This document shows positions 33,216-63,659 of a DNA stretch of 64,000 nt, one piece after another. Within the stretch, counting starts at the first letter, position 1. Each line of letters opens with the position of its first letter. Location: the NCBI GenBank assembly GCA_964385825.1, contig CAYLPX010000001.1, forward strand, positions 8,124-72,123. Direction: 5' to 3'. A program made the translations under genes and the position numbers. The DNA comes from an uncultured Candidatus Saccharibacteria bacterium (lineage in GTDB: Bacteria; Patescibacteriota; Minisyncoccia; Phycocordibacterales; JAKFXT01). The notes under the pieces are model-generated. The model was not told the origin of the DNA. It saw only the letters and a list, made by a program, of their open reading frames with translations, and did not search any database.

Positions 33216-33497
33216 ATGGAAAACTACATTTATATAGGTAATCTGCCTTTTAAAACAACAGAAGAAGAACTTCGTCAAAAATTCGCTACGATGGGCGAAG
33301 TTCTAGATATACGGATGGCTCTCGATGACGGACATTTTATGGGGTTTGGCTTCGTGAAAATGGGTAGCAGTGAGGAGGTTAAAAGCGCTATTGCTACATT
33401 CCACAATACTGATTTTGGGGGAAGAAATGCACATCTTTACTTCGGTAAAGACTTCATCTCCATGTGGGATAAATATATTGAGAAAAAAGGGGATTAG
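33216..33497 (+). CDS. RRM-domain RNA-binding protein (second copy)
   Basis: RNP-2 IYIGNL, RNP-1 MGFGFVKM. Confidence 0.8.
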   Translation: MENYIYIGNLPFKTTEEELRQKFATMGEVLDIRMALDDGHFMGFGFVKMGSSEEVKSAIATFHNTDFGGRNAHLYFGKDFISMWDKYIEKKGD

Positions 33498-33568
33498 TGT
33501 ATTTGACTTTTACAAAAAAATAGTTATAATAAAAAACAGTAAAATCCCTCAACTACAAGGAGATTAAG

Positions 33569-33874
33569 ATGTCTTCAACCGCACGGCGCCAATTTTGGCG
33601 TGATATTGTTGCACACCCCTACTCATGGATTGTGGTCATGATCGTGATAGCAGGTGCGTACATGATCGTAAGTTTTCCGGGGTTTGCGGCGTCATATCGG
33701 GCTCATCAGAAAAACTCGGCGCAGTTAGCTGAAGAAGCAGTTAAGGGATTTCAGTACCTCCGCGGTGGGAGTACGGGCCTATGTTTTGCCGTAAATCCCT
33801 ATCGAGATATGGCAGTTGGGATTTCGTGCGAGACAGTGCCTCCGGCGATGCTCATTCAGGTTCCAGGGAAATAG
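33569..33874 (+). CDS. small hypothetical membrane protein (GC-rich, SD-bearing)
   Basis: about 52% GC vs about 42% flanks; AAGGAG 7 nt upstream of ATG; one TM helix. Confidence 0.45.
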   Translation: MSSTARRQFWRDIVAHPYSWIVVMIVIAGAYMIVSFPGFAASYRAHQKNSAQLAEEAVKGFQYLRGGSTGLCFAVNPYRDMAVGISCETVPPAMLIQVPGK

Positions 33875-33928
33875 GGTTGTGAGTGCAGGACGTCCTCGAG
33901 CTTCCTCGGCTTTTCGGCCGCGGTTTTT

Positions 33929-35794
33929 TTATACCAATGCTCTTAGGGCGTTGAAGATAACTACCACATCTATTATTTCTTGAAGTATTGCTCCGTAGAG
34001 TGGTGGTACTCCTCCCATGATAGCTAAAAACATGAGAGCAACGCTTAGTCCGATACCTATCAGCATGGATTCTTTCGCAATACGGACTGTTTTGTGACTT
34101 ATAGTGAGTAGTCGTGGAAGTTTGTACAGATCATCACTACTTATAACAGCATCAGCTGCATCAGTTAAGGCTGTTTCCCCATGAGTCCCAAGAGCGATAC
34201 CAACGCTGGCTGATTTGAGTGCAGGACTATCATTAATCCCATCTCCCACCATTACTGTTGTTTTGTTTTCTGTTGTTGCTTCACTAACTACAGTAACTTT
34301 ATTTTCAGGAAGGCAGTTAGCGTGGATTTCGCTAAAGGGTAGTCCCTTGGCTACTTCATGGGCTCTAATCTCACTATCTCCGGTTAAAAGCATAAGGGTA
34401 CTGTTTGGATTTGTTTTCTGTATACTTCGGAGAACAGGACCACTATTTTCACGGAGTTTGTCGGAGAAACTAATCGATCCAAGGAAAGTAGTTCCTTCTG
34501 CTAGATGAATGAGAGTGTTTCCGGAATTACGAATAGTTTCTTCGAGTGCTTCGCTGTGGGCTGGAATTTGTACACCAGCTTCCTTTATAAACTGCAGTGA
34601 TCCTAGGGTATAGGTTTTGTCATTAAGTTGCCCGACGATACCTTTACCGACAGTCTCTTTCATATGTAGGATGGGAATAAGTTGGATATGTTCTTTTTGT
34701 ACTTCACGCATAAGACCACCTGAGAGAATGTGAGTGCCATATTGTGAAAGCGAAGCTGCAAGGGTAATAATGTCTCTTTTTAGTAATCCCTTTTTTTCTA
34801 CGAACACAGTTTCTAGGGTGGGAGCTCCCTCGGTAATAGTTCCTGTCTTATCAAAGAAAAAGGTATCAACATCAGTAAGTACTTCAAATACGCCACCATG
34901 TTTTACAATTATGCCTTCTTTTGCACTGCGACTCATTCCTGCGATAAAGGCTATGGGAGCTGCAAGTAGTAGGGGACAAGGAGTTGCCACCACAAGAACT
35001 GCTGCAACAAGGCGTGGGTCGATACTGTACGCAACAGCGGCCATAGCAAGGGTAAAGATGGTGAATCCTACGCTATAACGATCGGCTAAGCGAACAAGTG
35101 GAGCTTTATTTTTCTCTGCCTCAGTTACTAGCTGCAGAAGTTTAGCAAAGCTGCTGTGGGCGTAGTCACTTTGAGCTCGTATCAAGCATACCGCGCTTAG
35201 ATTTAAGGTTCCCCCGCGTATTCTGTCGTGTACAGTAACTTCTCGTGGGACTGGTTCACCGGTTAGTGTTGATTCGTCAAGCGTTGTTGTTCCGGAAATA
35301 ACAACGCCATCAACAGGGACAACCTCGTGTGGCTTTATAAGGAGGATAGTCCCTTCACGAATCTCATGTATTGGTATATCGCAAACTTCCTTGCCCTCCT
35401 CTTTGTGAGCTATGGTTGGTGCAGTATCAAGAAGTTTTTTTAAAGCACTTTTGGCACGTCCTTCGGCATAATCTTCAAGATACGCACCACCTGAAACCAT
35501 GAGAAGGATAATGAGGGCGGCGAGCCATTCACCAAGTAGTGCAGTCGAAATAAGCGCAAGGAGAGCAATTATATCTACCGCAAAGTGTTTCAGAAGTATA
35601 TTTTTTACAATGCGCAGAAAAAGTGGGAGGCTCCCCAAGATAATAACCATGAGCACAAAGGTTCGTACCAGTGCCAAATCACCCACGAATACCTTTTGAG
35701 TGAGGGTTAGTCCATAGACAAGTATGGTACAGAGTGTGAGTATGGCAACTCCACTATCCAGAGTTTTTTTGTTTAAAAAATGAGACTCAGTCAT
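33929..35794 (-). CDS. P-type ATPase, P1B-like heavy-metal/cation transporter (TPCP motif)
   Basis: DKTGTIT phosphorylation motif, TGDSEIRAHEVAKGL, VGDGINDSPAL; TM6 motif VATPCPLLLAAP; no obvious N-terminal HMA domain. Confidence 0.85.
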   Translation of the reverse strand: MTESHFLNKKTLDSGVAILTLCTILVYGLTLTQKVFVGDLALVRTFVLMVIILGSLPLFLRIVKNILLKHFAVDIIALLALISTALLGEWLAALIILLMVSGGAYLEDYAEGRAKSALKKLLDTAPTIAHKEEGKEVCDIPIHEIREGTILLIKPHEVVPVDGVVISGTTTLDESTLTGEPVPREVTVHDRIRGGTLNLSAVCLIRAQSDYAHSSFAKLLQLVTEAEKNKAPLVRLADRYSVGFTIFTLAMAAVAYSIDPRLVAAVLVVATPCPLLLAAPIAFIAGMSRSAKEGIIVKHGGVFEVLTDVDTFFFDKTGTITEGAPTLETVFVEKKGLLKRDIITLAASLSQYGTHILSGGLMREVQKEHIQLIPILHMKETVGKGIVGQLNDKTYTLGSLQFIKEAGVQIPAHSEALEETIRNSGNTLIHLAEGTTFLGSISFSDKLRENSGPVLRSIQKTNPNSTLMLLTGDSEIRAHEVAKGLPFSEIHANCLPENKVTVVSEATTENKTTVMVGDGINDSPALKSASVGIALGTHGETALTDAADAVISSDDLYKLPRLLTISHKTVRIAKESMLIGIGLSVALMFLAIMGGVPPLYGAILQEIIDVVVIFNALRALV

Positions 35795-37475: not shown

Positions 37476-37564
37476 ATGCCCTCTAGTATAGCGCATCTAA
37501 GGCAAGCTTTTGTGGGGACAATACAGGGGAAGTATGGGTATTCTTGCAGTATACTTAGGGTACT

Positions 37565-37966
37565 ATGGATATTCCTTTAGAACACGAAGGTGAGCTACGC
37601 AAGAAGCTTGGCGAGGAGGCTTATCATGTGCTGCGCGAGAAGGGGACAGAAATGCCTTTTAGTGGGGCATATGTCCACGAAACTCGGGAGGGGACATATA
37701 ACTGTAAGGTTTGTGGTAATCCGCTTTTTTCTTCTACAACCAAGTTTGACTCAGGTACTGGCTGGCCCAGTTTCGATGAGGCGCTTCAGGGTAGTATAAA
37801 AATGGTAGTTGATAGTAGTCACGGGATGGAACGTACAGAGGTAGTATGTGCTAAATGTGGCTCACACCTCGGTCACGTATTTGATGATGGACCAACTGAG
37901 ACAGGTAAGCGTTACTGTATGAATTCAGTTTGCCTTGATTTAGAGACAAAGGACGAAGACATGTAA
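37565..37966 (+). CDS. msrB: peptide-methionine (R)-S-oxide reductase
   Basis: CKVCGNPLF...GWPSF...CAKCGSHLGHVFDDGP...RYCMNS. Confidence 0.9.
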   Translation: MDIPLEHEGELRKKLGEEAYHVLREKGTEMPFSGAYVHETREGTYNCKVCGNPLFSSTTKFDSGTGWPSFDEALQGSIKMVVDSSHGMERTEVVCAKCGSHLGHVFDDGPTETGKRYCMNSVCLDLETKDEDM

Positions 37967-46705: not shown

Positions 46706-46735
46706 ATAAAAAAGCCCCCGCGGAAGCGGGGGGGT
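46706..46735 (-). terminator. GC-clamp intrinsic terminator of 46747..47064 gene
   Basis: minus strand: cacccCCCCGCttccGCGGGGGctttttt. Confidence 0.6.
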
Positions 46736-46746
46736 GGAGTGGACCA

Positions 46747-47064
46747 TCACCTGCGGTAGATGAAAATCCTTTGTTGCGGGGGAGCCCATTGCGGCGCCGG
46801 CTGATAGATCGGCCCGGGGTACATTCCCGTGGCGCCGGCCACTTGCGGCACCTGTGGGTAGTACAGCTGTCCCGGAGCCCGATAAAGCGGCTGCCCTGCG
46901 TACCCTTGCCCAGGATACATGGGCGTGGTGCCGGCGTACGGCTGGTACATCGGCCCATTCGGGATGAACCGCGAGCCTTGATAGTAACGATAACCCTGGG
47001 CTTCCGCGATACTTGCCACGGAAAGCCCGAGGCAGGCGACAGCAACAGCGAGGAACTTGTTCAT
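46747..47064 (-). CDS. small secreted Tyr/Pro/Gln/Gly-rich low-complexity protein (GC-rich gene)
   Basis: Signal peptide MNKFLAVAVACLGLSVASIAEA; YYQG/PMYQPYAG/QGYAGQPLY repeats; AAGGAG SD 7 nt upstream; own promoter and terminator; about 65% GC. Confidence 0.65.
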   Translation of the reverse strand: MNKFLAVAVACLGLSVASIAEAQGYRYYQGSRFIPNGPMYQPYAGTTPMYPGQGYAGQPLYRAPGQLYYPQVPQVAGATGMYPGPIYQPAPQWAPPQQRIFIYRR

Positions 47065-47111
47065 GGAACTCTCCTTTCAAGAGAGTTGGTTTCGAGGGTG
47101 ACCTGTAATTT

Positions 47112-47140
47112 ACAATACGAGTTAGGTGACTTCGTGTCAA
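47112..47140 (-). promoter_or_regulatory. sigma70-like promoter for 46747..47064
   Basis: minus strand TTGACA - 17 nt - TATTGT about 45 nt upstream of ATG. Confidence 0.4.
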
Positions 47141-47186
47141 GACAGTAAAGTGGCTCAAGTTTAGCGAGCTTGGTATAGTACTTATT

Positions 47187-48763: not shown

Positions 48764-48822
48764 ACTATGAGTATAGCAAATTAGAGGTTAAGACTAATTT
48801 TCTTATGTAAGAGTGGAGAAGT

Positions 48823-50146: not shown

Positions 50147-50200
50147 TTTTTGTTTTCTTAGCTCCGCGGGTAGGGATCGAACCTACGACCGACTCGTTAC

Positions 50201-50759
50201 ACAAATTCCTCTATTACTAAAGGGGTGGACTATATCATCATCCTTTTCTTTTTCAAGACTATTGGATGCGAGGCGCTTCGACCTTGTAATTTTACAAGGG
50301 CTACTCCCACTAGGGGATAGTCTCTACACCTTCCGAAATGTTTCTATTTCGGCTTGGCTCGGGATTGCCCGCGCTTTCGCACTAGGGTTTCCCCGAGTTC
50401 ACCTCGTTTTTCAACCAAAATTCCTTTTGGAAGCTGCGTGATGCCGCCATGTATTTCTCTATGACAATTTGCACATATCAGAATGCACTTATCAATTTCT
50501 TGCTTGATTTTTTCTCACGATCGCGTAAGTCCTTTTACGGAAAGACCAAAATCTTTTTTCTTTGGATCAAGGTGGTGAAAATCAAGTGCACCTGAATAGC
50601 GCTTATAGCCACAAATCATACATTTACCGCCCTTATACTCACGGGCCATTTCCCGAAGTCTCTTGCGTCGTTCGGAAACAGCTTTTCGTAAGTATTCAGC
50701 ACGGTCAGCATAGGTTCGTTTTTCTGGCATACTTGCTTAAGTATACCACAAACCTCTCC
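50201..50759 (-). mobile_element. group I intron (IC3-like, tRNA-Leu-intron-type core) carrying an HNH ORF in an expanded P1 loop
   Basis: Core matches cyanobacterial tRNA-Leu(UAA) intron: GGGAAACC, GGCAAUCCCGAGCCAAGCCGAAAUAG, UCGGAAGGUGUAGAGACUA, GGGAGUAGCCCU, AUAGUCC; IGS ACGCAGC just before UUCCAAAAGGAA (P2) can pair with exon GCUGU (G.U at splice site); intron ends in G. Confidence 0.65.
50515..50730 (-). CDS. intron-encoded small HNH endonuclease (putative homing endonuclease)
   Basis: 71 aa; ...GGKCMICGYKRYSGALDFHHLDPKKK... HNH signature; lies within intron. Confidence 0.6.
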   Translation of the reverse strand: MPEKRTYADRAEYLRKAVSERRKRLREMAREYKGGKCMICGYKRYSGALDFHHLDPKKKDFGLSVKGLTRS

Positions 50760-56870: not shown

Positions 56871-58202
56871 CTAGAGAAGTGAAACTTTGGCGCCGAGGCT
56901 ATTTAGGCGGGTAATTAAGTCTTCATATCCACGGTTGATACTGTAGATGTTGCGGAGGATTGAAGTGCCAGAAGCTCCCAACATAGCAATAAGGATGATG
57001 GTGGCAGGGCGGAGTGCCGGTGGGCAGACCATTTCAGCTGAGGTGAGCTTTGAGGGCCCGGTGACAAAGAAACGATGTGGGTCAGCGAGTACGGTTGAAG
57101 CCCCGAGCCTATCTAGCTCGGTATAGTAGAGAGCTCGCTTTTCATAGACCCAATCATGAATGAGGGTTTGGCCACGCGCTTGAGTTGCGATGACAGCAAA
57201 GAAGGGGAGGTTGTCTATGTTGAGTCCTGGGTAGGGCATCGGATGGATCTTATCAAGTGGGGCTACAAGGCGAGAGGGTAGGGTTGTAATATCTACAAGT
57301 TTTGTTTTACCGTTGTGGGAGAGATATGGTTTACTCATCTTGTATTTAAAATGCATTTCATGGAGTGTGGCGAGTTCCAGTTCTAGGAACTCAATAGGGC
57401 AGCGTGTGATTGTGATTGAAGAGTTAGTGAGAATAGCGGAAGTTAAAAAGAACATAGAGTCGGTCGGGTCCTCGCTTACCGTGTAGGTAATTGGTTCATT
57501 GATGTCGCTTACTCCAGTTATAGTGAGTGTGCTGGTGCCAATACCTTCTATCTTGACCCCGAGGGTGTGGAGGAAGTTACACACTTCTTGTACTTGGTAG
57601 TTAGCTGAAGCGTAGCGGATGGTTGTGGTACTCGGTATTTTGGAGGCGCCTAGTATGGCATTCACCGTAGCTGTGTCTCCCGCTTCCATCATAACTATGT
57701 TGGCTTTGTGAAGTTTTTTTGAGGTGACTACAAAGGCGTCTGAGGTTGTCTTGATATTGACCCCGAATTCTTTGAGGGCAAAGAGGTGGGGGAAGATGGT
57801 ACGACTACCTAGTTTACAACCACCGGACTGGGGAATGGAAAAATGCGGAAAGAAGTGCATAAGGCTGCCAATGAACATAATGATGCTACGCGTGCGCTTG
57901 GCGGAAACGGCATTGATAGTCTTTAGATTTATTTTCGTGGGAGGAGTAATGAGGAGATCGTGTCCTTTCCATTCAGCTTTAACATCAATGCTTTTGAGAA
58001 CTTCAATAAGACGATTCACCTCCTCAATTTTCGGCATTCGTTTTAGGAGTGTTGGGCTACTATTGAGGAGCGATGCGCAGATGAGTACTACCGCACCGTT
58101 TTTAGACGTATTAGTTTCTATGGTGCCATGGAGCTTGTGGCCACCTTCAATTTTAATATTGAGACTCTCGGTAATTTTCTTATTTCCTACTGATTTTGCC
58201 AT
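56871..58202 (-). CDS. murA: UDP-N-acetylglucosamine 1-carboxyvinyltransferase
   Basis: EPSP-synthase fold; KNGAVVLICASLL, active-site loop GGCKLGSR (Cys retained), HDWVYEKRALY. Confidence 0.85.
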   Translation of the reverse strand: MAKSVGNKKITESLNIKIEGGHKLHGTIETNTSKNGAVVLICASLLNSSPTLLKRMPKIEEVNRLIEVLKSIDVKAEWKGHDLLITPPTKINLKTINAVSAKRTRSIIMFIGSLMHFFPHFSIPQSGGCKLGSRTIFPHLFALKEFGVNIKTTSDAFVVTSKKLHKANIVMMEAGDTATVNAILGASKIPSTTTIRYASANYQVQEVCNFLHTLGVKIEGIGTSTLTITGVSDINEPITYTVSEDPTDSMFFLTSAILTNSSITITRCPIEFLELELATLHEMHFKYKMSKPYLSHNGKTKLVDITTLPSRLVAPLDKIHPMPYPGLNIDNLPFFAVIATQARGQTLIHDWVYEKRALYYTELDRLGASTVLADPHRFFVTGPSKLTSAEMVCPPALRPATIILIAMLGASGTSILRNIYSINRGYEDLITRLNSLGAKVSLL

Positions 58203-58242
58203 TACTAGAGTATACAGGGTTCCCTAAAGAACTAGAAGAAAA

Positions 58243-58275
58243 TGAAAAACCGGCGCCCTTGTGGGGCGCCGGGGG
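58243..58275 (-). terminator. GC-clamp terminator module (family copy) after small zinc-ribbon gene
   Basis: minus: caccccCGGCGCCCcacaaGGGCGCCGGttttt. Confidence 0.55.
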
Positions 58276-58287
58276 TGACGGGAACGG

Positions 58288-58464
58288 TCAGTCGCGACAA
58301 TCGTTGTCCTCCGGAGGTTCGCGGCTGTCGGCGATGTCTGTCGCCAGCTGACTCGGTTTGCGTGGCTGCCGCTCTCCACTGCAGGTTGGGCAGTCCGTGT
58401 TGCCAGGGCGCAAGACGGTTCCGCAGCTATCGCAGCGCACCGTCTCCCGTACGTCGTGGGGCAT
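58288..58464 (-). CDS. 58-aa zinc-ribbon protein (not in ORF track, under 60 aa); GC-rich
   Basis: Hand translation: MPHDVRETVRCDSCGTVLRPGNTDCPTCSGERQPRKPSQLATDIADSREPPEDNDCRD; AAGGAGA SD 6 nt upstream; about 65% GC. Confidence 0.5.
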   Translation of the reverse strand: MPHDVRETVRCDSCGTVLRPGNTDCPTCSGERQPRKPSQLATDIADSREPPEDNDCRD

Positions 58465-58501
58465 GGCTATCTCCTTGTGTCAGGACGATCTTGTCCAGTG
58501 G

Positions 58502-58531
58502 TATTTAATATTGGATTTGCAATTCAGTCAA
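58502..58531 (-). promoter_or_regulatory. sigma70-like promoter for the 58-aa gene
   Basis: minus: TTGACT - 18 nt - TAAATA. Confidence 0.35.
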
Positions 58532-58532
58532 T

Positions 58533-58566
58533 AAAAAAACGACGCCCTTGCGGGGCGTCGGGGGTG
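58533..58566 (-). terminator. GC-clamp terminator module (family copy)
   Basis: minus: gcaccccCGACGCCCcgcaaGGGCGTCGttttttt; near-duplicate of 58243 module. Confidence 0.5.
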
Positions 58567-58581
58567 CGACAAAGAACTGGT

Positions 58582-58959
58582 TCAGCCGACAGGTTGGTCG
58601 CCGAGAGGTCCGAACAGAACTTCGTAGAGATCGGGATGGTTCCTGGCGAATTTTGCTTTCTGGATAATCAGCTGCTTTTCGTTGTACTTGAAGAGGGTCC
58701 AAATCCCAGCCACCAGAATGCACATGCCAATTCCGTTGGTGGCAAACTCCCCAAGGCTTGAATTCCTTGTGGCGAAGATGAGGGCTACTAGCAGTGCCAT
58801 GACTACAAACATCCAGATGGCGGCTGTTCGGGGAAGTACTTCGCAGTAGCTTTCCCAGGCCACTTGCGCTTTTGCTCGCTTCCTCTTCATCTCGGATTTT
58901 TTCTGGAGGGCTACCTCCACTTCGGATGACAAGGCTTGTCCACACTTTTCGCAATGCAT
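58582..58959 (-). CDS. zinc-ribbon + 2-TM small membrane protein (GC-elevated)
   Basis: Start set at ATG 58959 (MHCEKCGQAL...) preceded by AAGGAG SD; CxxC...C; two TM helices; track ORF extends to 59037. Confidence 0.5.
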   Translation of the reverse strand: MHCEKCGQALSSEVEVALQKKSEMKRKRAKAQVAWESYCEVLPRTAAIWMFVVMALLVALIFATRNSSLGEFATNGIGMCILVAGIWTLFKYNEKQLIIQKAKFARNHPDLYEVLFGPLGDQPVG

Positions 58960-59087
58960 CGATGACTCCTTCGCGTTTGGTTGGTTGATGGGTACTCTGC
59001 TAGGCATTATATTGTAATTATTTTTATAGTTTGTCAATAAGTTTGGGTATTACCACAAACACCTGTAAAATGGGCACACTAACTTCT

Positions 59088-60104
59088 ATGAAAAGCTTTT
59101 TTTCTCGCAAACTCGGTATTGATTTAGGCACTGCTAACACGCTCGTTTTTGTGCCTGGAAAGGGGGTGGTACTGAATGAGCCGTCGGTAGTAGCGGTATC
59201 AGAACAAGATAATAAAATTCTAGCAGTAGGGGCCGAAGCCAAAGAAATGATCGGGCGCACCCCTGACTCAATCATTGCGTATCGCCCGATGAAAGATGGA
59301 GTGATCGCTGATTATCGTGTGACTGAAGTTATGCTCCGCTACTATATGAGTAAGGCACTTGGTAAGTGGAATATGATTAAGCCAGAAGTAATGATTTCAG
59401 TGCCCGCTGGTGTTACTTCAACAGAGCGCCGAGCGGTGGTTGAAGCTGCGATAAAAGCAGGGGCTAAGAGTGCATACGTGGTGAAGGAACCAATATTGGC
59501 CGCGATTGGTGCTGGCATTCCTATTCAAGAAGCGCTCGGGCATATGATCGTTGATATAGGAGGAGGGACAACTGATGTGGCGGTGATTTCGCTCGGTGGG
59601 ATAGTTGCGAGTAAGTCGGTGAAGTGTGCGGGCAACAAAGTTGATGCAGCCATAGCTGACTATGTGAAAAAGAATTTTAACTTAGCGATAGGGGACAAGA
59701 TGGCAGAGGATATAAAAATAAAAGTAGGGTCAGCAGTGCCAGTAGAGGAGGAACTCGTCATGACCATTAAGGGGCGCGATTTTATTACCGGACTTCCACG
59801 CAGTGTTGAGATCCGTACGAACGAAGTGGTGAAGGCGATAGCTAGGGAGCTCCGCGATATGATCAAAGCTATTAAAGACGTACTCCAAGAGACACCACCG
59901 GAACTTGCGTCAGATATTATTGATCAGGGTATTACTATGACTGGTGGGTCCTCAATGCTCCGCAATTTTCCTGAACTGGTGTTTCGTCGCACGGGAGTGA
60001 AGGCACAACTTGCCAAAGACGCCTACTATTGTGTCGCTAAGGGTACGGGTATTGCTCTTGAGCATTTGGATATTTATAAGAAGAGTATTATTGCGAAGAG
60101 GTAA
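59088..60104 (+). CDS. mreB: rod shape-determining protein MreB (actin-like ATPase)
   Basis: GIDLGTANTLVFV, VPAGVTSTERRAV, DIGGGTTDVAVIS; start set at ATG 59088. Confidence 0.9.
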   Translation: MKSFFSRKLGIDLGTANTLVFVPGKGVVLNEPSVVAVSEQDNKILAVGAEAKEMIGRTPDSIIAYRPMKDGVIADYRVTEVMLRYYMSKALGKWNMIKPEVMISVPAGVTSTERRAVVEAAIKAGAKSAYVVKEPILAAIGAGIPIQEALGHMIVDIGGGTTDVAVISLGGIVASKSVKCAGNKVDAAIADYVKKNFNLAIGDKMAEDIKIKVGSAVPVEEELVMTIKGRDFITGLPRSVEIRTNEVVKAIARELRDMIKAIKDVLQETPPELASDIIDQGITMTGGSSMLRNFPELVFRRTGVKAQLAKDAYYCVAKGTGIALEHLDIYKKSIIAKR

Positions 60105-61370: not shown

Positions 61371-61399
61371 AAAAAAGCCGCCCCAGGGGGCGGCTTTTG
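61371..61399. terminator. bidirectional GC-clamp terminator
   Basis: aaaaaaGCCGCCCCagGGGGCGGCtttt. Confidence 0.65.
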
Positions 61400-61411
61400 C
61401 AAAGGGCGTGG

Positions 61412-61630
61412 TTACGCCATTTGCTTCAGGTCGTACCACAGGCCGATTCCGATGAGCCCAGCGTAGAAAATGGATCCCCCGAAAATCCCGAGCAGCCATT
61501 GCTCAGAGGGAATGGGGAAGATTTGGTTGACCTCCCACACGAATCCGCCGTGCACGGTGGTCATGACGAGCACGAGCCACAACACGTTGGCGATGAGTGC
61601 TCGCACAAAGCTGAAACGAAGATATTTCAT
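61412..61630 (-). CDS. small 2-TM membrane protein (GC-rich cassette, downstream gene)
   Basis: 72 aa; AAGGAGGG SD; 4-nt ATGA overlap with upstream gene. Confidence 0.5.
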   Translation of the reverse strand: MKYLRFSFVRALIANVLWLVLVMTTVHGGFVWEVNQIFPIPSEQWLLGIFGGSIFYAGLIGIGLWYDLKQMA

Positions 61631-61869
61631 TTCGACCCCCCCTCCTTTTTTGAAGGAACATGACTGACGTCTAGGAAGGCGCCGTAGAGGATCAATAGGG
61701 CGGAAATCACGAACCCTAGCTCGAGCACAATATCTCGGGGAACAGTAAGGTCGATCCAGGGAAATCGATTATTGGGTCCGAGAAAATCGGTACAGAGTGA
61801 AACTATGGTCAGGGTGCACCAAAGGTAAAACGCAATGACCGCCTTGGTAAAATTTTTGCCGAAGTACAT
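61627..61869 (-). CDS. small 2-TM membrane protein (GC-rich cassette, upstream gene)
   Basis: 80 aa; GGAG SD 8 nt upstream. Confidence 0.5.
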   Translation of the reverse strand: MYFGKNFTKAVIAFYLWCTLTIVSLCTDFLGPNNRFPWIDLTVPRDIVLELGFVISALLILYGAFLDVSHVPSKKEGGSK

Positions 61870-61967
61870 GATCTTACTCCATTGTTGTCCGAATTACTTT
61901 ATAACATGTAATATACATATTGTCAAAGTTTGTTTGAGCCCCGGTCTTAGTACGTTAGAATAGACAT

Positions 61968-63133: not shown

Positions 63134-63166
63134 GTAAAAAAAGGCCGCGCTCGGGTGAGCGCGGGG
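63134..63166 (-). terminator. GC-clamp terminator module after second small-membrane-protein cassette
   Basis: minus: aaccCCGCGCTCacccGAGCGCGGcctttttttaccc. Confidence 0.5.
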
Positions 63167-63176
63167 TTGGGGGCGA

Positions 63177-63383
63177 TCAGGAGTCATGTCGTCGCCATTC
63201 TTGCGGGATGGTAACGATAGTCATGGCGAACCCGACGGCGAACAGACCCATGGCGAGGAGTGTCACATACGACTCCTTGAAGCATCGTGAGTCCCCACCA
63301 CAGGCGGAGTTCTCAAAGATGCCAATTGATAGCCCGACGGCCACCACAGCAATCCAAAACATCGGATGTTGCCAGAATTTCAT
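63177..63383 (-). CDS. small 2-TM membrane protein (GC-rich cassette 2, downstream gene)
   Basis: Start at ATG 63383 (MKFWQHPMFWIAVVAVGL...) with AAGGAGG SD; ATGA overlap with upstream gene. Confidence 0.45.
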   Translation of the reverse strand: MKFWQHPMFWIAVVAVGLSIGIFENSACGGDSRCFKESYVTLLAMGLFAVGFAMTIVTIPQEWRRHDS

Positions 63384-63562
63384 GGTTCCTCCTTGATCGA
63401 CGGGTTGATCGGTTCGCTCTTTGCAAGTCCCGCTACGGCGAGGACAGCAAAGAGGGCAATCAAAACGGCTACAGGGAACGGGAGTGGGGTGACCCAGCTC
63501 ACTATCCCTGCTACGACTCCGATCGCAATGAGTGCGAGGAGTACTGCGGTAGTGTGTGGCAT
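63380..63562 (-). CDS. small 2-TM membrane protein (GC-rich cassette 2, upstream gene)
   Basis: Start at ATG 63562 (MPHTTAVLLALIAIGVV...) with GGAG SD. Confidence 0.45.
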   Translation of the reverse strand: MPHTTAVLLALIAIGVVAGIVSWVTPLPFPVAVLIALFAVLAVAGLAKSEPINPSIKEEP

Positions 63563-63659
63563 ACACTTCTCCTGTTGAACAACGGTCTTCTTTATACTAT
63601 GAAAAGTGTAAAAAGTCAAAACTTTGGTGAATGAGAAAGCATTTAGTACAATAGTCCTA

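What the first reader, a model, noticed from the sequence alone, without database searches (positions are those of the whole stretch)
58240..58990. GC-rich island with two small zinc-ribbon genes and duplicated terminator modules
A 58-aa CxxC...CxxC protein (below the ORF-track cutoff, about 65% GC) has a perfect SD, its own TTGACT/TAAATA promoter and a terminator. Upstream of it is a 125-aa protein with an N-terminal CxxC zinc ribbon and two TM helices, whose real start at MHCEKCG is preceded by AAGGAG. The two terminators, aaaaaCCGGCGCCCttgtgGGGCGCCGGgggtg and aaaaaaaCGACGCCCttgcGGGGCGTCGggggtg, are near-duplicates. The island is inserted between murA and mreB.
Basis: seen in the sequence. 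Interest (0 to 1): 0.55.

Follow-up and report, generated by a model that had tools for sequence, protein, structure and literature searches.

The report
Orphan small-gene cassettes upstream of murA
Between two cell-wall genes of an uncultured ultra-small bacterium sit two tiny genes of unknown function, each with its own on and off switches, that look imported and belong to a set of small cassettes that come and go between close relatives.

Summary
On the minus strand, 58241-59037 holds two separate one-gene units pointing towards murA. The first is a 125-aa two-helix membrane protein (58582-58959). The second is a 58-aa CxxCG...CPxC zinc-ribbon protein with an acidic tail (58288-58464), absent from the public protein collection searched and from the gene calls seen. 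Each has a TTGAC[AT] promoter, an AAGGAG ribosome-binding site and a GC-rich terminator. The two terminators are paralogous (86% over 37 nt), and the motif occurs nowhere else in the window.

The genome is a Patescibacteria (Paceibacteria-like) MAG. Most relatives keep murA and mreB back to back, but only the closest lineages carry these genes. In those lineages whole units differ, with breakpoints at the terminators.

Both genes are compositional outliers: GC3 is 0.73 and 0.61 against 0.39 in the host. They also carry ribosome-binding sites in a genome where 46 of 48 long genes have none. At least four more cassettes of this type lie in the window.

p58 is under purifying selection (dN/dS 0.25). 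Only p58 is a zinc ribbon; p125 has one HCxxC plus a distant Cys, both lost in sister lineages. No function could be assigned. My best reading is a moron-like accessory cassette array that turns over by recombination at its terminators.

The parts
59006..59037 (-). p125 promoter region. -35 TTGACA at 59032-59037; -10 candidates TACAAT 59011-59016 (15-nt spacer) or TATAAT 59006-59011 (20-nt spacer). It lies back to back with the mreB promoter.
   Evidence: Read from the sequence. The -35 box and its flank are conserved in L091-L094, where the spacer to TATTAT is 16 nt.
58966..58971 (-). p125 Shine-Dalgarno AAGGAG, 6 nt before the ATG.
58582..58959 (-). p125: 125-aa helical-hairpin membrane protein. 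It has MHCEKCG plus Cys39, a basic cytoplasmic helix, two TM helices, and a conserved C-terminal motif KAKFAxxHPDLYExxFGPLGDxP.
   Evidence: Homologues P0004, P0007 and P0011. AlphaFold model pLDDT 72.8, all helical. Hydropathy scan. GC3 0.61.
58530..58566 (-). Terminator T2 of p125. Stem-loop 58540-58560 plus T run; it is one copy of the 37-nt repeat.
58502..58531 (-). p58 promoter. -35 TTGACT at 58526-58531; -10 TATTAAATA at about 58502-58510.
   Evidence: Read from the sequence. Both boxes are identical in L008, L091 and L097, although neutral sites are saturated.
58483..58496 (-). Small 5'UTR hairpin GGACaagatcGTCC. The stem is conserved in sister lineages (GGACAAATTGTCC).
58471..58476 (-). 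p58 Shine-Dalgarno AAGGAG, 6 nt before the ATG.
58288..58464 (-). p58: unannotated 58-aa zinc-ribbon micro-protein (CDSCG-x10-CPTCS) with a conserved acidic tail DIADSRExPExDDxRD.
   Evidence: Orthologues in L008 and L097 are 54% identical, with all four Cys kept and a 3-nt indel. dN/dS is 0.25. GC3 > GC1 > GC2 at 0.73/0.64/0.58. The model has a ribbon core and a disordered tail. The sequence is not in the protein collection.
58241..58277 (-). Terminator T1 of p58. Stem-loop 58250-58272 plus T run; it is the second copy of the 37-nt repeat.
   Evidence: Nearly identical in L008.
58200..58214 (-). murA -10 box TATACT (58209-58214), 6 nt before the murA ATG (58200-58202), with no SD. It looks like a leaderless start and marks the right-hand boundary of the islet.
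   Evidence: Conserved in L008, L091 and L097.

Best explanation
The islet is a lineage-specific accessory cassette array in the murA-mreB intergenic hot spot of a Patescibacteria (Paceibacteria-like) genome. It is built from two self-contained units of promoter, 5'UTR with SD, small gene and intrinsic terminator, both pointing towards murA.

Shown:
- Both ORFs are real conserved genes.
- p58 is a cytoplasmic four-Cys zinc-ribbon micro-protein whose most conserved part is an acidic tail.
- p125 is a membrane helical hairpin.
- The units are foreign in composition and in translation signals.
- Only the nearest relatives have them.
- Whole units differ between near relatives, with breakpoints at the terminators.

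Inferred:
- p125 most likely has both ends in the cytoplasm.
- The units came in by lateral transfer, probably from SD-using and GC-richer Patescibacteria.
- The array grows and shrinks by recombination between the near-identical terminator hairpins. A loop-out between direct repeats would give loss. A single crossover with a circularised or allelic fragment would give gain.
- The terminators insulate each unit and stop read-through into the murA start, which looks leaderless.

Functional guess, low confidence: p58 binds a protein partner through its acidic tail, as an adaptor or inhibitor. p125 is an accessory envelope protein. Both belong to a fast-evolving repertoire of small membrane, secreted and zinc-ribbon proteins, not to core cell-wall synthesis.
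For: Real genes:
- p58 dN/dS is 0.25 against a near-saturated dS. All four Cys are kept, the only indel is 3 nt, and GC3 > GC1 > GC2.
- p125 has full-length or C-terminal homologues with a conserved C-terminal motif.

Expression signals are conserved between species whose synonymous sites are saturated.

Foreign character:
- GC3 is 0.73 and 0.61, against 0.39 +/- 0.046 for the background (maximum 0.49). The CAI-like index falls below the background minimum.
- An AAGGAG SD precedes every cassette gene checked, but only 2 of 48 long ORFs have an SD-like motif. Among 28 JGI gene calls, strong SDs precede only GC3-rich small genes.

Distribution:
- murA/mreB adjacency is kept in most of 80 relatives, with other content or none in the gap.
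- The p125 family has only 4 clusters among 5.8 billion, and one of them sits in a different gap, def-priA, at native GC.
- p58 was not found outside the genus.

Turnover:
- The window has p125-T-p58-T.
- L008, L093 and L095 add an 84-aa unit flanked by a perfect 28-bp repeat of the terminator.
- L091, L092 and L094 lack that unit but carry another unit after the p58 terminator.
- L097 has both.

The same design is seen in the L097 priA-def gap: two tandem units whose terminators are 93% identical over 28 nt.
Against: - No function was shown and no donor was found.
- GC3 has stayed at 0.73-0.74 in lineages whose synonymous sites are saturated. An old import should have drifted towards host composition.
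- The units are stable across the genus, so 'mobile' may overstate the case.
- Gain versus loss of individual units cannot be polarised with so few lineages.
- No recombinase was found in the 20 window proteins scanned or in the 21-kb gene list.
- p125 has dN/dS of about 1 between two close lineages, which may mean relaxed constraint.
- Promoters are consensus matches only.
Confidence: 0.6

Rival explanations
1. The genes are native and vertically inherited, not imported. They evolve fast, and their high GC3 is an equilibrium kept by GC-biased gene conversion or selection in a recombination-prone gap. They carry an SD simply because they have a 5'UTR in a genome whose other mRNAs are leaderless.
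For: GC3 is the same in W, L008 and L097 despite saturated synonymous divergence. The cassettes are syntenic across the genus, including the tm80/tm72 unit. The distant p125 homologue has native GC in its own genome. gBGC in bacteria is documented (PMC4450053).
Against: The genes are absent from all relatives beyond the genus, although the flanks are conserved. Only 4 protein clusters exist worldwide. The p125 homologue sits in another gap. Whole units come and go between lineages about 94% identical.
Confidence: 0.2
2. The hairpins are recombination sites of a site-specific system (integron-like, or a hairpin-targeting element), and the units are true mobile cassettes.
For: Unit indels have breakpoints exactly at the hairpins and T tracts, and one unit is flanked by a perfect 28-bp repeat. 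Tandem arrays with shared hairpins occur in two different gaps.
Against: No integrase or transposase was found in the proteins scanned or in the neighbourhood gene lists. Each array has its own hairpin sequence, so there is no common site. Each unit has its own promoter, unlike integron cassettes. The hairpins are perfect GC stems with a T run, i.e. ordinary terminators.
Confidence: 0.1
3. The region acts at the RNA level, as a leader, attenuator or small RNA that controls murA, and the ORFs are incidental to GC-rich sequence.
For: It lies directly upstream of murA in the same orientation and ends in a terminator. GC-rich DNA gives open frames in several phases. Relatives L010 and L013 have a promoter-to-terminator unit without an ORF in the same slot. 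The L008 transcript folds with z = -3.8.
Against: dN/dS is 0.25, the Cys ligands are conserved, the indel is 3 nt, and the SD and ATG are conserved. The window transcript folds with z = -1.9 even with the terminator included. There is no Rfam match. murA has its own conserved -10 box after the terminator.
Confidence: 0.05
4. The genes are decaying remnants of an old import and now have no function.
For: They are orphans with no known domain above threshold. p125h has dN/dS of about 1 between close lineages. The HCxxC is lost in sister lineages.
Against: The reading frames, SDs, promoters and terminators are intact in four lineages across saturated neutral divergence. The p58 tail and Cys residues are conserved.
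Confidence: 0.05

Closest known systems
Phage 'morons': independent promoter-gene-terminator units added between conserved genes (PMC3594210)
   Same: Each unit has its own promoter and factor-independent terminator. GC content differs from the neighbours. The unit sits between two conserved genes and is present or absent among relatives.
   Different: The host here is a cellular chromosome between core genes murA and mreB, not a phage or prophage. There are no phage genes nearby and no PHROG match. The units form tandem arrays that share one terminator sequence.
Small CPxCG-related zinc-finger proteins, e.g. Brz of Halobacterium salinarum (PMC2253796)
   Same: p58 is 58 aa, with a CxxCG pattern and a CPxCx pattern 10 residues apart. 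Like Brz, it is encoded directly upstream of another gene in the same orientation.
   Different: This is a motif class, not a homologous family. There is no sequence similarity to Brz. p58 is acidic (pI 4.75) with a disordered acidic tail, which points to protein binding more than DNA binding. No regulatory role was tested.
Integron gene cassette arrays
   Same: Short single-gene units lie in tandem, each ending in a hairpin-forming repeat. Unit content varies between relatives.
   Different: No integrase was found. The hairpins are plain terminators and differ from one array to the next. Every unit has its own promoter.
Chromosomal hot spots of horizontally acquired genes between conserved core genes, including genomic islands reported in Patescibacteria (PMC12455944)
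   Same: The flanks are conserved core genes, the content is variable, and composition is atypical. Exchange mostly among Patescibacteria is plausible.
   Different: The scale is very small (0.15-0.5 kb per unit). There is no mobility gene. Units are bounded by duplicated terminators, and their translation signals differ from the host's.

Membership tests
CPxCG-related small zinc-finger proteins (motif class of PMC2253796) | Protein shorter than 100 aa | tested here: met
   p58 is 58 aa.
CPxCG-related small zinc-finger proteins (motif class of PMC2253796) | Two Cys/His patterns 7-40 residues apart, at least one of them CPxCG-like (CPxCG, CPxCx or CxxCG) | tested here: met
   CDSCG (CxxCG) at residues 11-15 and CPTCS (CPxCx) at 25-29, with 10 residues between C14 and C25. 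All four Cys are kept in L008 and L097. Definition read.
CPxCG-related small zinc-finger proteins (motif class of PMC2253796) | Binds zinc and acts in gene regulation | not testable with these tools
   Needs metal analysis and genetics.
Pfam zinc-ribbon families (Zn_ribbon_3 PF13248, DZR PF12773) | Score at or above the gathering threshold | tested here: not met
   p58 scores 22.3 bits against a cutoff of 27 for Zn_ribbon_3, and 16 against 27.3 for DZR. Fold search gives only generic knuckle hits with E > 1.
Zinc ribbon (for p125) | Two CxxC-type knuckles giving four ligands, conserved in the family | tested here: not met
   p125 has only H2-C3-x2-C6 plus C39. P0007 keeps these residues, but P0004 and P0011 lack all of them. 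The N-terminus has pLDDT of 49 in the model.
Phage moron | Own promoter and own factor-independent terminator | tested here: met
   Consensus promoter boxes and GC-rich hairpins with a T run are present for both units and conserved in sister species. This is a sequence match only, not an expression test.
Phage moron | Base composition differs from the surrounding genes | tested here: met
   GC is 0.65 and 0.52 against 0.43. GC3 is 0.73 and 0.61 against 0.39.
Phage moron | Lies in a phage or prophage genome | tested here: not met
   The flanks are murA, mreB, holB, frr, priA and def. There is no PHROG hit below E = 0.01 and no match in the phage or viral collections.
Integron cassette array | Integron integrase next to the array | tested here: not met
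   No recombinase was found among 20 window proteins or in the Pfam lists of the 21-kb neighbourhood. The whole genome was not available.
Integron cassette array | Promoterless cassettes ending in attC sites that share core sites | tested here: not met
   Each unit has its own TTGAC[AT] promoter. The hairpins are perfect 7-9 bp GC stems with a T run, and their sequence differs between arrays.
Rho-independent terminator | GC-rich stem-loop followed by a T run just downstream of a stop codon | tested here: met
   Stem-loops at 58272-58250 and 58560-58540 start 15 and 20 nt after the stop codons.
Known anti-phage defence or toxin-antitoxin systems | Match to a PADLOC model | tested here: not met
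   No hit for p58, p125, the 84-aa unit or P0007 at E <= 1.

The most novel reading that the evidence does not exclude
This Patescibacteria genus may keep a separate class of genes: small, SD-led, GC3-rich, moron-like cassettes that encode membrane, secreted and zinc-ribbon micro-proteins. These would sit in intergenic hot spots of a genome that otherwise lacks SDs and looks largely leaderless. Arrays would be built and remodelled by recombination at their own terminator hairpins, without a dedicated recombinase. High GC3 would be maintained and not merely inherited, for example by biased gene conversion or steady re-import.
Probability: 0.3. Interest if true: 0.65.

Novelty: new variant of a known kind. 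Interest (0 to 1): 0.45.

Why it matters
Ultra-small symbiotic bacteria have tiny genomes, and most of their lineage-specific genes are unknowns. This case gives a concrete picture of how such genomes may gain and lose small genes. The genes come as ready-to-express units dropped into gaps between core genes. They carry signals unlike the host's own, and their terminators double as recombination handles.

It also flags a 58-aa zinc-ribbon gene that was not called in the gene annotations seen. Simple rules (SD plus high GC3 plus a terminator) would find more such hidden genes in this group. The proteins themselves remain without a function, so the immediate value lies in genome dynamics and annotation, not in a new mechanism.

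Tried and rejected
- Known families: Pfam, NCBIfam, PADLOC and PHROGs give nothing above threshold for p58, p125, the 84-aa unit or P0007.
- Protein database searches: p58 has no candidate. p125 finds only its own cluster. A profile search finds 4 clusters in total.
- The exhaustive phmmer run gave seven TPR-repeat proteins. I reject them as matches of the p125 'HPDLYE' stretch to repeated TPR units, where many weak stretches were summed.
- Viral contigs, phage records and plasmid records: no relatives.
- The metagenome scan with the p58 alignment found only the sister species (L095) and one chance C-terminal 8-mer match (L096).
- Rfam: nothing in the islet, nor in L008, L009, L010, L013 or the L097 islet, apart from weak sub-threshold hits.
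- RNA folding of the p58 transcript is not convincingly more stable than shuffles in the window.
- Structure: the p58 and p125 models have no significant PDB neighbours. The afdb50 library was not available.
- DNA similarity between the islet and the gap of the next relatives (L009, L010, L013): only the 15-nt post-terminator stretch GGTTTTTCATTTTCT is shared.
- A second 17-nt repeat (58217-58233 and 58562-58578, 76%) was judged to be chance.

Full report
**What is there.** Everything below reads on the minus strand. The stretch 59037-58241 contains two complete one-gene transcription units in tandem, both pointing towards murA (58202-56871). The neighbouring mreB (59088-60104) is transcribed the other way.

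Unit 1:
- -35 box TTGACA at 59037-59032.
- AAGGAG at 58971-58966, 6 nt before the ATG.
- A 125-aa ORF (58959-58582) starting MHCEKCG.
- A hairpin CGACGCCC-cgcaa-GGGCGTCG followed by T7 (58560-58533).

Unit 2:
- -35 box TTGACT at 58531-58526, then TATTAAATA.
- A short 5'UTR hairpin.
- AAGGAG at 58476-58471.
- A 58-aa ORF (58464-58288).
- A hairpin CCGGCGCCC-cacaa-GGGCGCCGG followed by T5 (58272-58245).

After that come TATACT (58214-58209), six bases, and the murA ATG. murA has no ribosome-binding site. The terminator scan finds both hairpins. GC reaches 0.63-0.69 in 58196-58521, against a window mean of 0.43.

**Is the terminator similarity more than chance?** Yes, on three counts:
- The two terminators form a 37-nt direct repeat at 86% identity, and one of the differences is a compensatory G-C to A-T change in the stem.
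- The motif GRCGCCC-N5-GGGCGYC occurs only at these two places in 64 kb, against 0.14 expected.
- Among 12 terminator-like hairpins in the window, this pair is the most alike: 0.81, against a median of 0.45 and a next-best of 0.64.

Across all 98 loci fetched, the motif is confined to this islet in the same genus, apart from two isolated hits.

**Whose genome.** MurA finds relatives only among Patescibacteria MAGs. They are labelled Paceibacteria, Parcubacteria, Nomurabacteria, Kaiserbacteria and, for some records, Saccharibacteria. The same genome, 100% identical across the islet, appears in several JGI and Logan samples.

**Are the ORFs genes?** p58 has orthologues in sister lineages (L008, L091-L095, L097). 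The evidence that it codes for a protein is:
- 54% amino-acid identity, with all four Cys, the N-terminal MPHDxRxTxRC and the tail LAxDIADSRExPExDDxRD kept.
- The only indel is 3 nt.
- Nucleotide differences peak at codon position 3.
- dN/dS is 0.25, although synonymous sites are near saturation: pS is 0.61 for p58 and 0.67 for murA.
- GC3 > GC1 > GC2.

The promoter boxes, the UTR hairpin stem, the SD and the terminator are better conserved than the coding sequence. RNA folding gives z = -1.9 in the window and -3.8 in L008 with the terminator included, and Rfam finds nothing. I therefore read p58 as a protein gene, not an RNA gene.

The gene is absent from the gene calls on the contigs examined. 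Its exact sequence is not among about 15 billion collected proteins.

p125 has one near-identical cluster (P0001), orthologues in the sister lineages (P0004, P0011), and one distant full-length homologue at 29% identity (P0007).

**What the proteins look like.** p58 matches zinc-ribbon models only below threshold. It fits the published definition of a small CPxCG-related zinc-finger protein: CxxCG and CPxCx patterns 10 residues apart, and a length under 100 aa (PMC2253796). Its model has a ribbon core (pLDDT about 76-84) and a disordered tail. It has 12 acidic and 8 basic residues (pI 4.75), and the tail carries 7 of the acidic ones. Fold search gives only generic knuckle matches with E > 1.

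p125 is modelled as an all-helical hairpin:
- a cytoplasmic basic helix, residues 12-38;
- two membrane helices, 41-65 and 71-92, the second continuing into a cytoplasmic helix;
- a short C-terminal helix.

Its conserved part is the C-terminal KAKFAxxHPDLYExxFGPLGDxP. The N-terminal HCxxC and Cys39 are kept in the distant homologue but missing from the sister-lineage orthologues. This is not a conserved zinc ribbon. No structural neighbour was found.

**Foreign character.** GC3 is 0.73 for p58 and 0.61 for p125. In 26 long ORFs it is 0.39 +/- 0.046, with a maximum of 0.49. The CAI-like index of both genes lies below the background minimum.

- Of 48 long ORFs, only 2 have any SD-like motif upstream. 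I estimate at most about five once in-frame alternative starts are allowed for.
- 17 of the 48 have a TAnnnT box ending 5-9 nt before the start, which looks leaderless.
- Every small GC3-rich gene checked has an AGGAG or GGAG motif upstream.
- With the independent JGI gene calls the picture is the same. Strong SDs precede only GC3-rich small genes.

**The slot in relatives.** Most of the 80 related genomes keep murA and mreB divergent and adjacent. The gap ranges from 35 to 3645 bp, and many are about 250 bp. Larger gaps hold unrelated content: PEP-CTERM secreted proteins, other small ORFs, or a promoter-to-terminator stretch with no ORF. Only the nearest lineages (MurA 93% identical) carry p125 and p58, at the same high GC.

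**Turnover of units.** Four arrangements exist:
- The window has p125-T-p58-T.
- L008, L093 and L095 add a third unit between them: a TTGACA-16-TAAAAT promoter, an 84-aa one-helix protein and a terminator. It is flanked by a perfect 28-bp direct repeat, CGACCGGCGCCCGCAAGGGCGCCTTTTT, which is the terminator itself.
- L091, L092 and L094 lack that unit. They carry about 150 bp ending in another terminator, inserted at the T tract of the p58 terminator.
- L097 has both, and there the extra unit has a full TTGACA-17-TATACT promoter and no convincing ORF.

These lineages are about 93-96% identical in the flanks. With the window as outgroup, gains are the simpler reading. Deletion between 28-bp repeats is easy, however, so the direction stays open.

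The same design appears in the priA-def gap of L097. Two tandem units there (a TM plus CxxC...CxxC protein and a 110-aa protein) have terminators 93% identical over 28 nt. Each is preceded by a 19-nt copy of the priA 3' end. That pattern fits either a single crossover with a circularised allelic fragment, or a tandem duplication followed by allele replacement. In another, distant genome (PriA 36% identical) that same gap holds the p125 homologue P0007, at native GC.

Each array has its own hairpin sequence. No recombinase turned up in the 20 window proteins scanned or in the Pfam gene list of the 21-kb neighbourhood. I therefore favour homology-driven recombination at the terminators over a site-specific system.

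**More of the same in the window.** Four other loci share the same design of TTGAC[AT] promoter, AAGGAG-type SD, small gene or genes, and GC-rich terminator:
- 33495-33930(+): a 101-aa TM protein.
- 46715-47150(-): a 105-aa secreted P/Q/Y/G-rich protein, GC3 0.71.
- 61373-61930(-): TM proteins of 80 and 72 aa, GC3 0.57 and 0.74.
- 63145-63620(-): TM proteins of 60 and 68 aa, GC3 0.59 and 0.64.

GC3 was not measured for the first of these. The 61373-61930 unit is syntenic in L097.

**Rates.** Between close lineages, dS is 0.14-0.22 in mreB and murA. The dN/dS values are 0.52 (p58), 0.46 (84-aa unit) and about 1.0 (p125h, from small counts), against 0.12 for murA and 0 for mreB. The cassette proteins evolve fast.

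**An unresolved point.** GC3 of p58 is unchanged (0.73-0.74) in lineages separated by saturated synonymous divergence. Among codons with identical amino acids, third positions are 19 same-S, 2 S/S, 9 S/W and 1 W/W. An old import should have decayed towards 0.39. Selection, GC-biased gene conversion in a recombination-prone gap (PMC4450053) or repeated re-import could each explain this. I cannot tell which.

**Verdict.** 'Two zinc ribbons' and 'duplicated modules' need trimming. The closest known concept is the phage moron: a unit with its own promoter and terminator and odd GC, added between conserved genes (PMC3594210). Here, though, the units sit in a cellular chromosome and form tandem arrays that share a terminator. 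Genomic islands and gene exchange among Patescibacteria are already reported (PMC12455944). Function is unknown. My low-confidence guess is that p58 binds a protein partner through its acidic tail and that p125 is an accessory envelope protein. Interest is moderate: the proteins are orphans, but the cassette design and the contrast in translation signals are worth a genome-wide look.

Noticed in passing
whole window; examples 58200-58214, 37540-37567, 48764-48790: Core genes almost never have a Shine-Dalgarno motif (2 of 48). Many have a TAnnnT box 5-9 nt before the start codon (17 of 48), which suggests widespread leaderless mRNAs. Only the small GC3-rich cassette genes carry AAGGAG.
   Followed up: partly
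window 33495-33930 (+): A cassette with a perfect TTGACT-17-TATAAT promoter, AAGGAGATTAAGATG, a 101-aa protein with one TM helix, and a GC-rich terminator. The gene before it (33217-33495, an RRM-like RNA-binding protein by eye) starts 3 nt after TATAAT.
   Followed up: partly
window 46715-47150 (-): A cassette encoding a 105-aa secreted protein that is low-complexity and rich in P, Q, Y and G. GC reaches 0.69 and GC3 is 0.71. It has TTGACA-17-TATTGT, AAGGAG and the terminator CCCCCCGC-ttcc-GCGGGGG. Pfam gives no match.
   Followed up: partly
window 61373-61930 (-) and 63145-63620 (-): Two two-gene cassettes of small membrane proteins (80+72 aa and 60+68 aa), each with a promoter, SDs, overlapping or adjacent genes and one GC-rich terminator. 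GC3 is 0.57-0.74. The first is syntenic in L097.
   Followed up: partly
window 50150-50660 (-): A group I intron (Rfam, 70 bits) at 50207-50492 is followed by what reads as the T arm and acceptor 3' half of a tRNA (GGTCGTAGGTTCGATCCCTACCCGCGGAGC). It is preceded by an HNH-like ORF with an in-frame TGA. ARAGORN calls no tRNA in the window.
   Followed up: partly
L011:5836-7338 and many other loci (L014, L018, L022, L024-L028, L065, L067, L076-L082): In most relatives MurA carries an N-terminal XRE-type HTH domain fused in frame (Pfam HTH_3, E = 7e-16, plus EPSP_synthase). The domain is missing in the window, L008-L010, L013 and L097, where murA starts right after a -10 box.
   Followed up: partly
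L097:8540-9460: The priA-def gap is 46 bp in the window. In L097 it holds two tandem cassettes with near-identical terminators and a 19-nt repeat of the priA 3' end before each promoter. In L088-L090 the same gap holds the p125 homologue P0007 on the opposite strand.
   Followed up: partly
L010:5560-5900 and L013:5640-5960: In the murA-mreB gap, a conserved TTGACA-17-TATAAT/C promoter points towards murA. It is followed by about 300 nt of GC-elevated sequence with no shared ORF and by a terminator. Rfam gives no match. This may be an unknown small RNA.
   Followed up: partly
L097:4225-4500; L091:1700-1860: An extra unit lies between the p58 terminator and murA: TTGACA-17-TATACT, about 230 nt with no convincing ORF, and its own terminator. 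In L091, L092 and L094 the promoter part is deleted.
   Followed up: partly
window 58510 and 58890: Several independent assemblies of the same genome break inside the islet. L001 ends at window position 58510, and L003 and L004 start at 58890. This hints at strain variation or co-occurring sister lineages in those samples (SRR12487046 holds both L007 and L098).
   Followed up: no
L002:1448-3275: The genome has a second MreB paralogue (354 aa) in a mreB-mreC-PBP2 cluster just beyond the window end. The MreB next to murA is therefore an extra, stand-alone copy.
   Followed up: no
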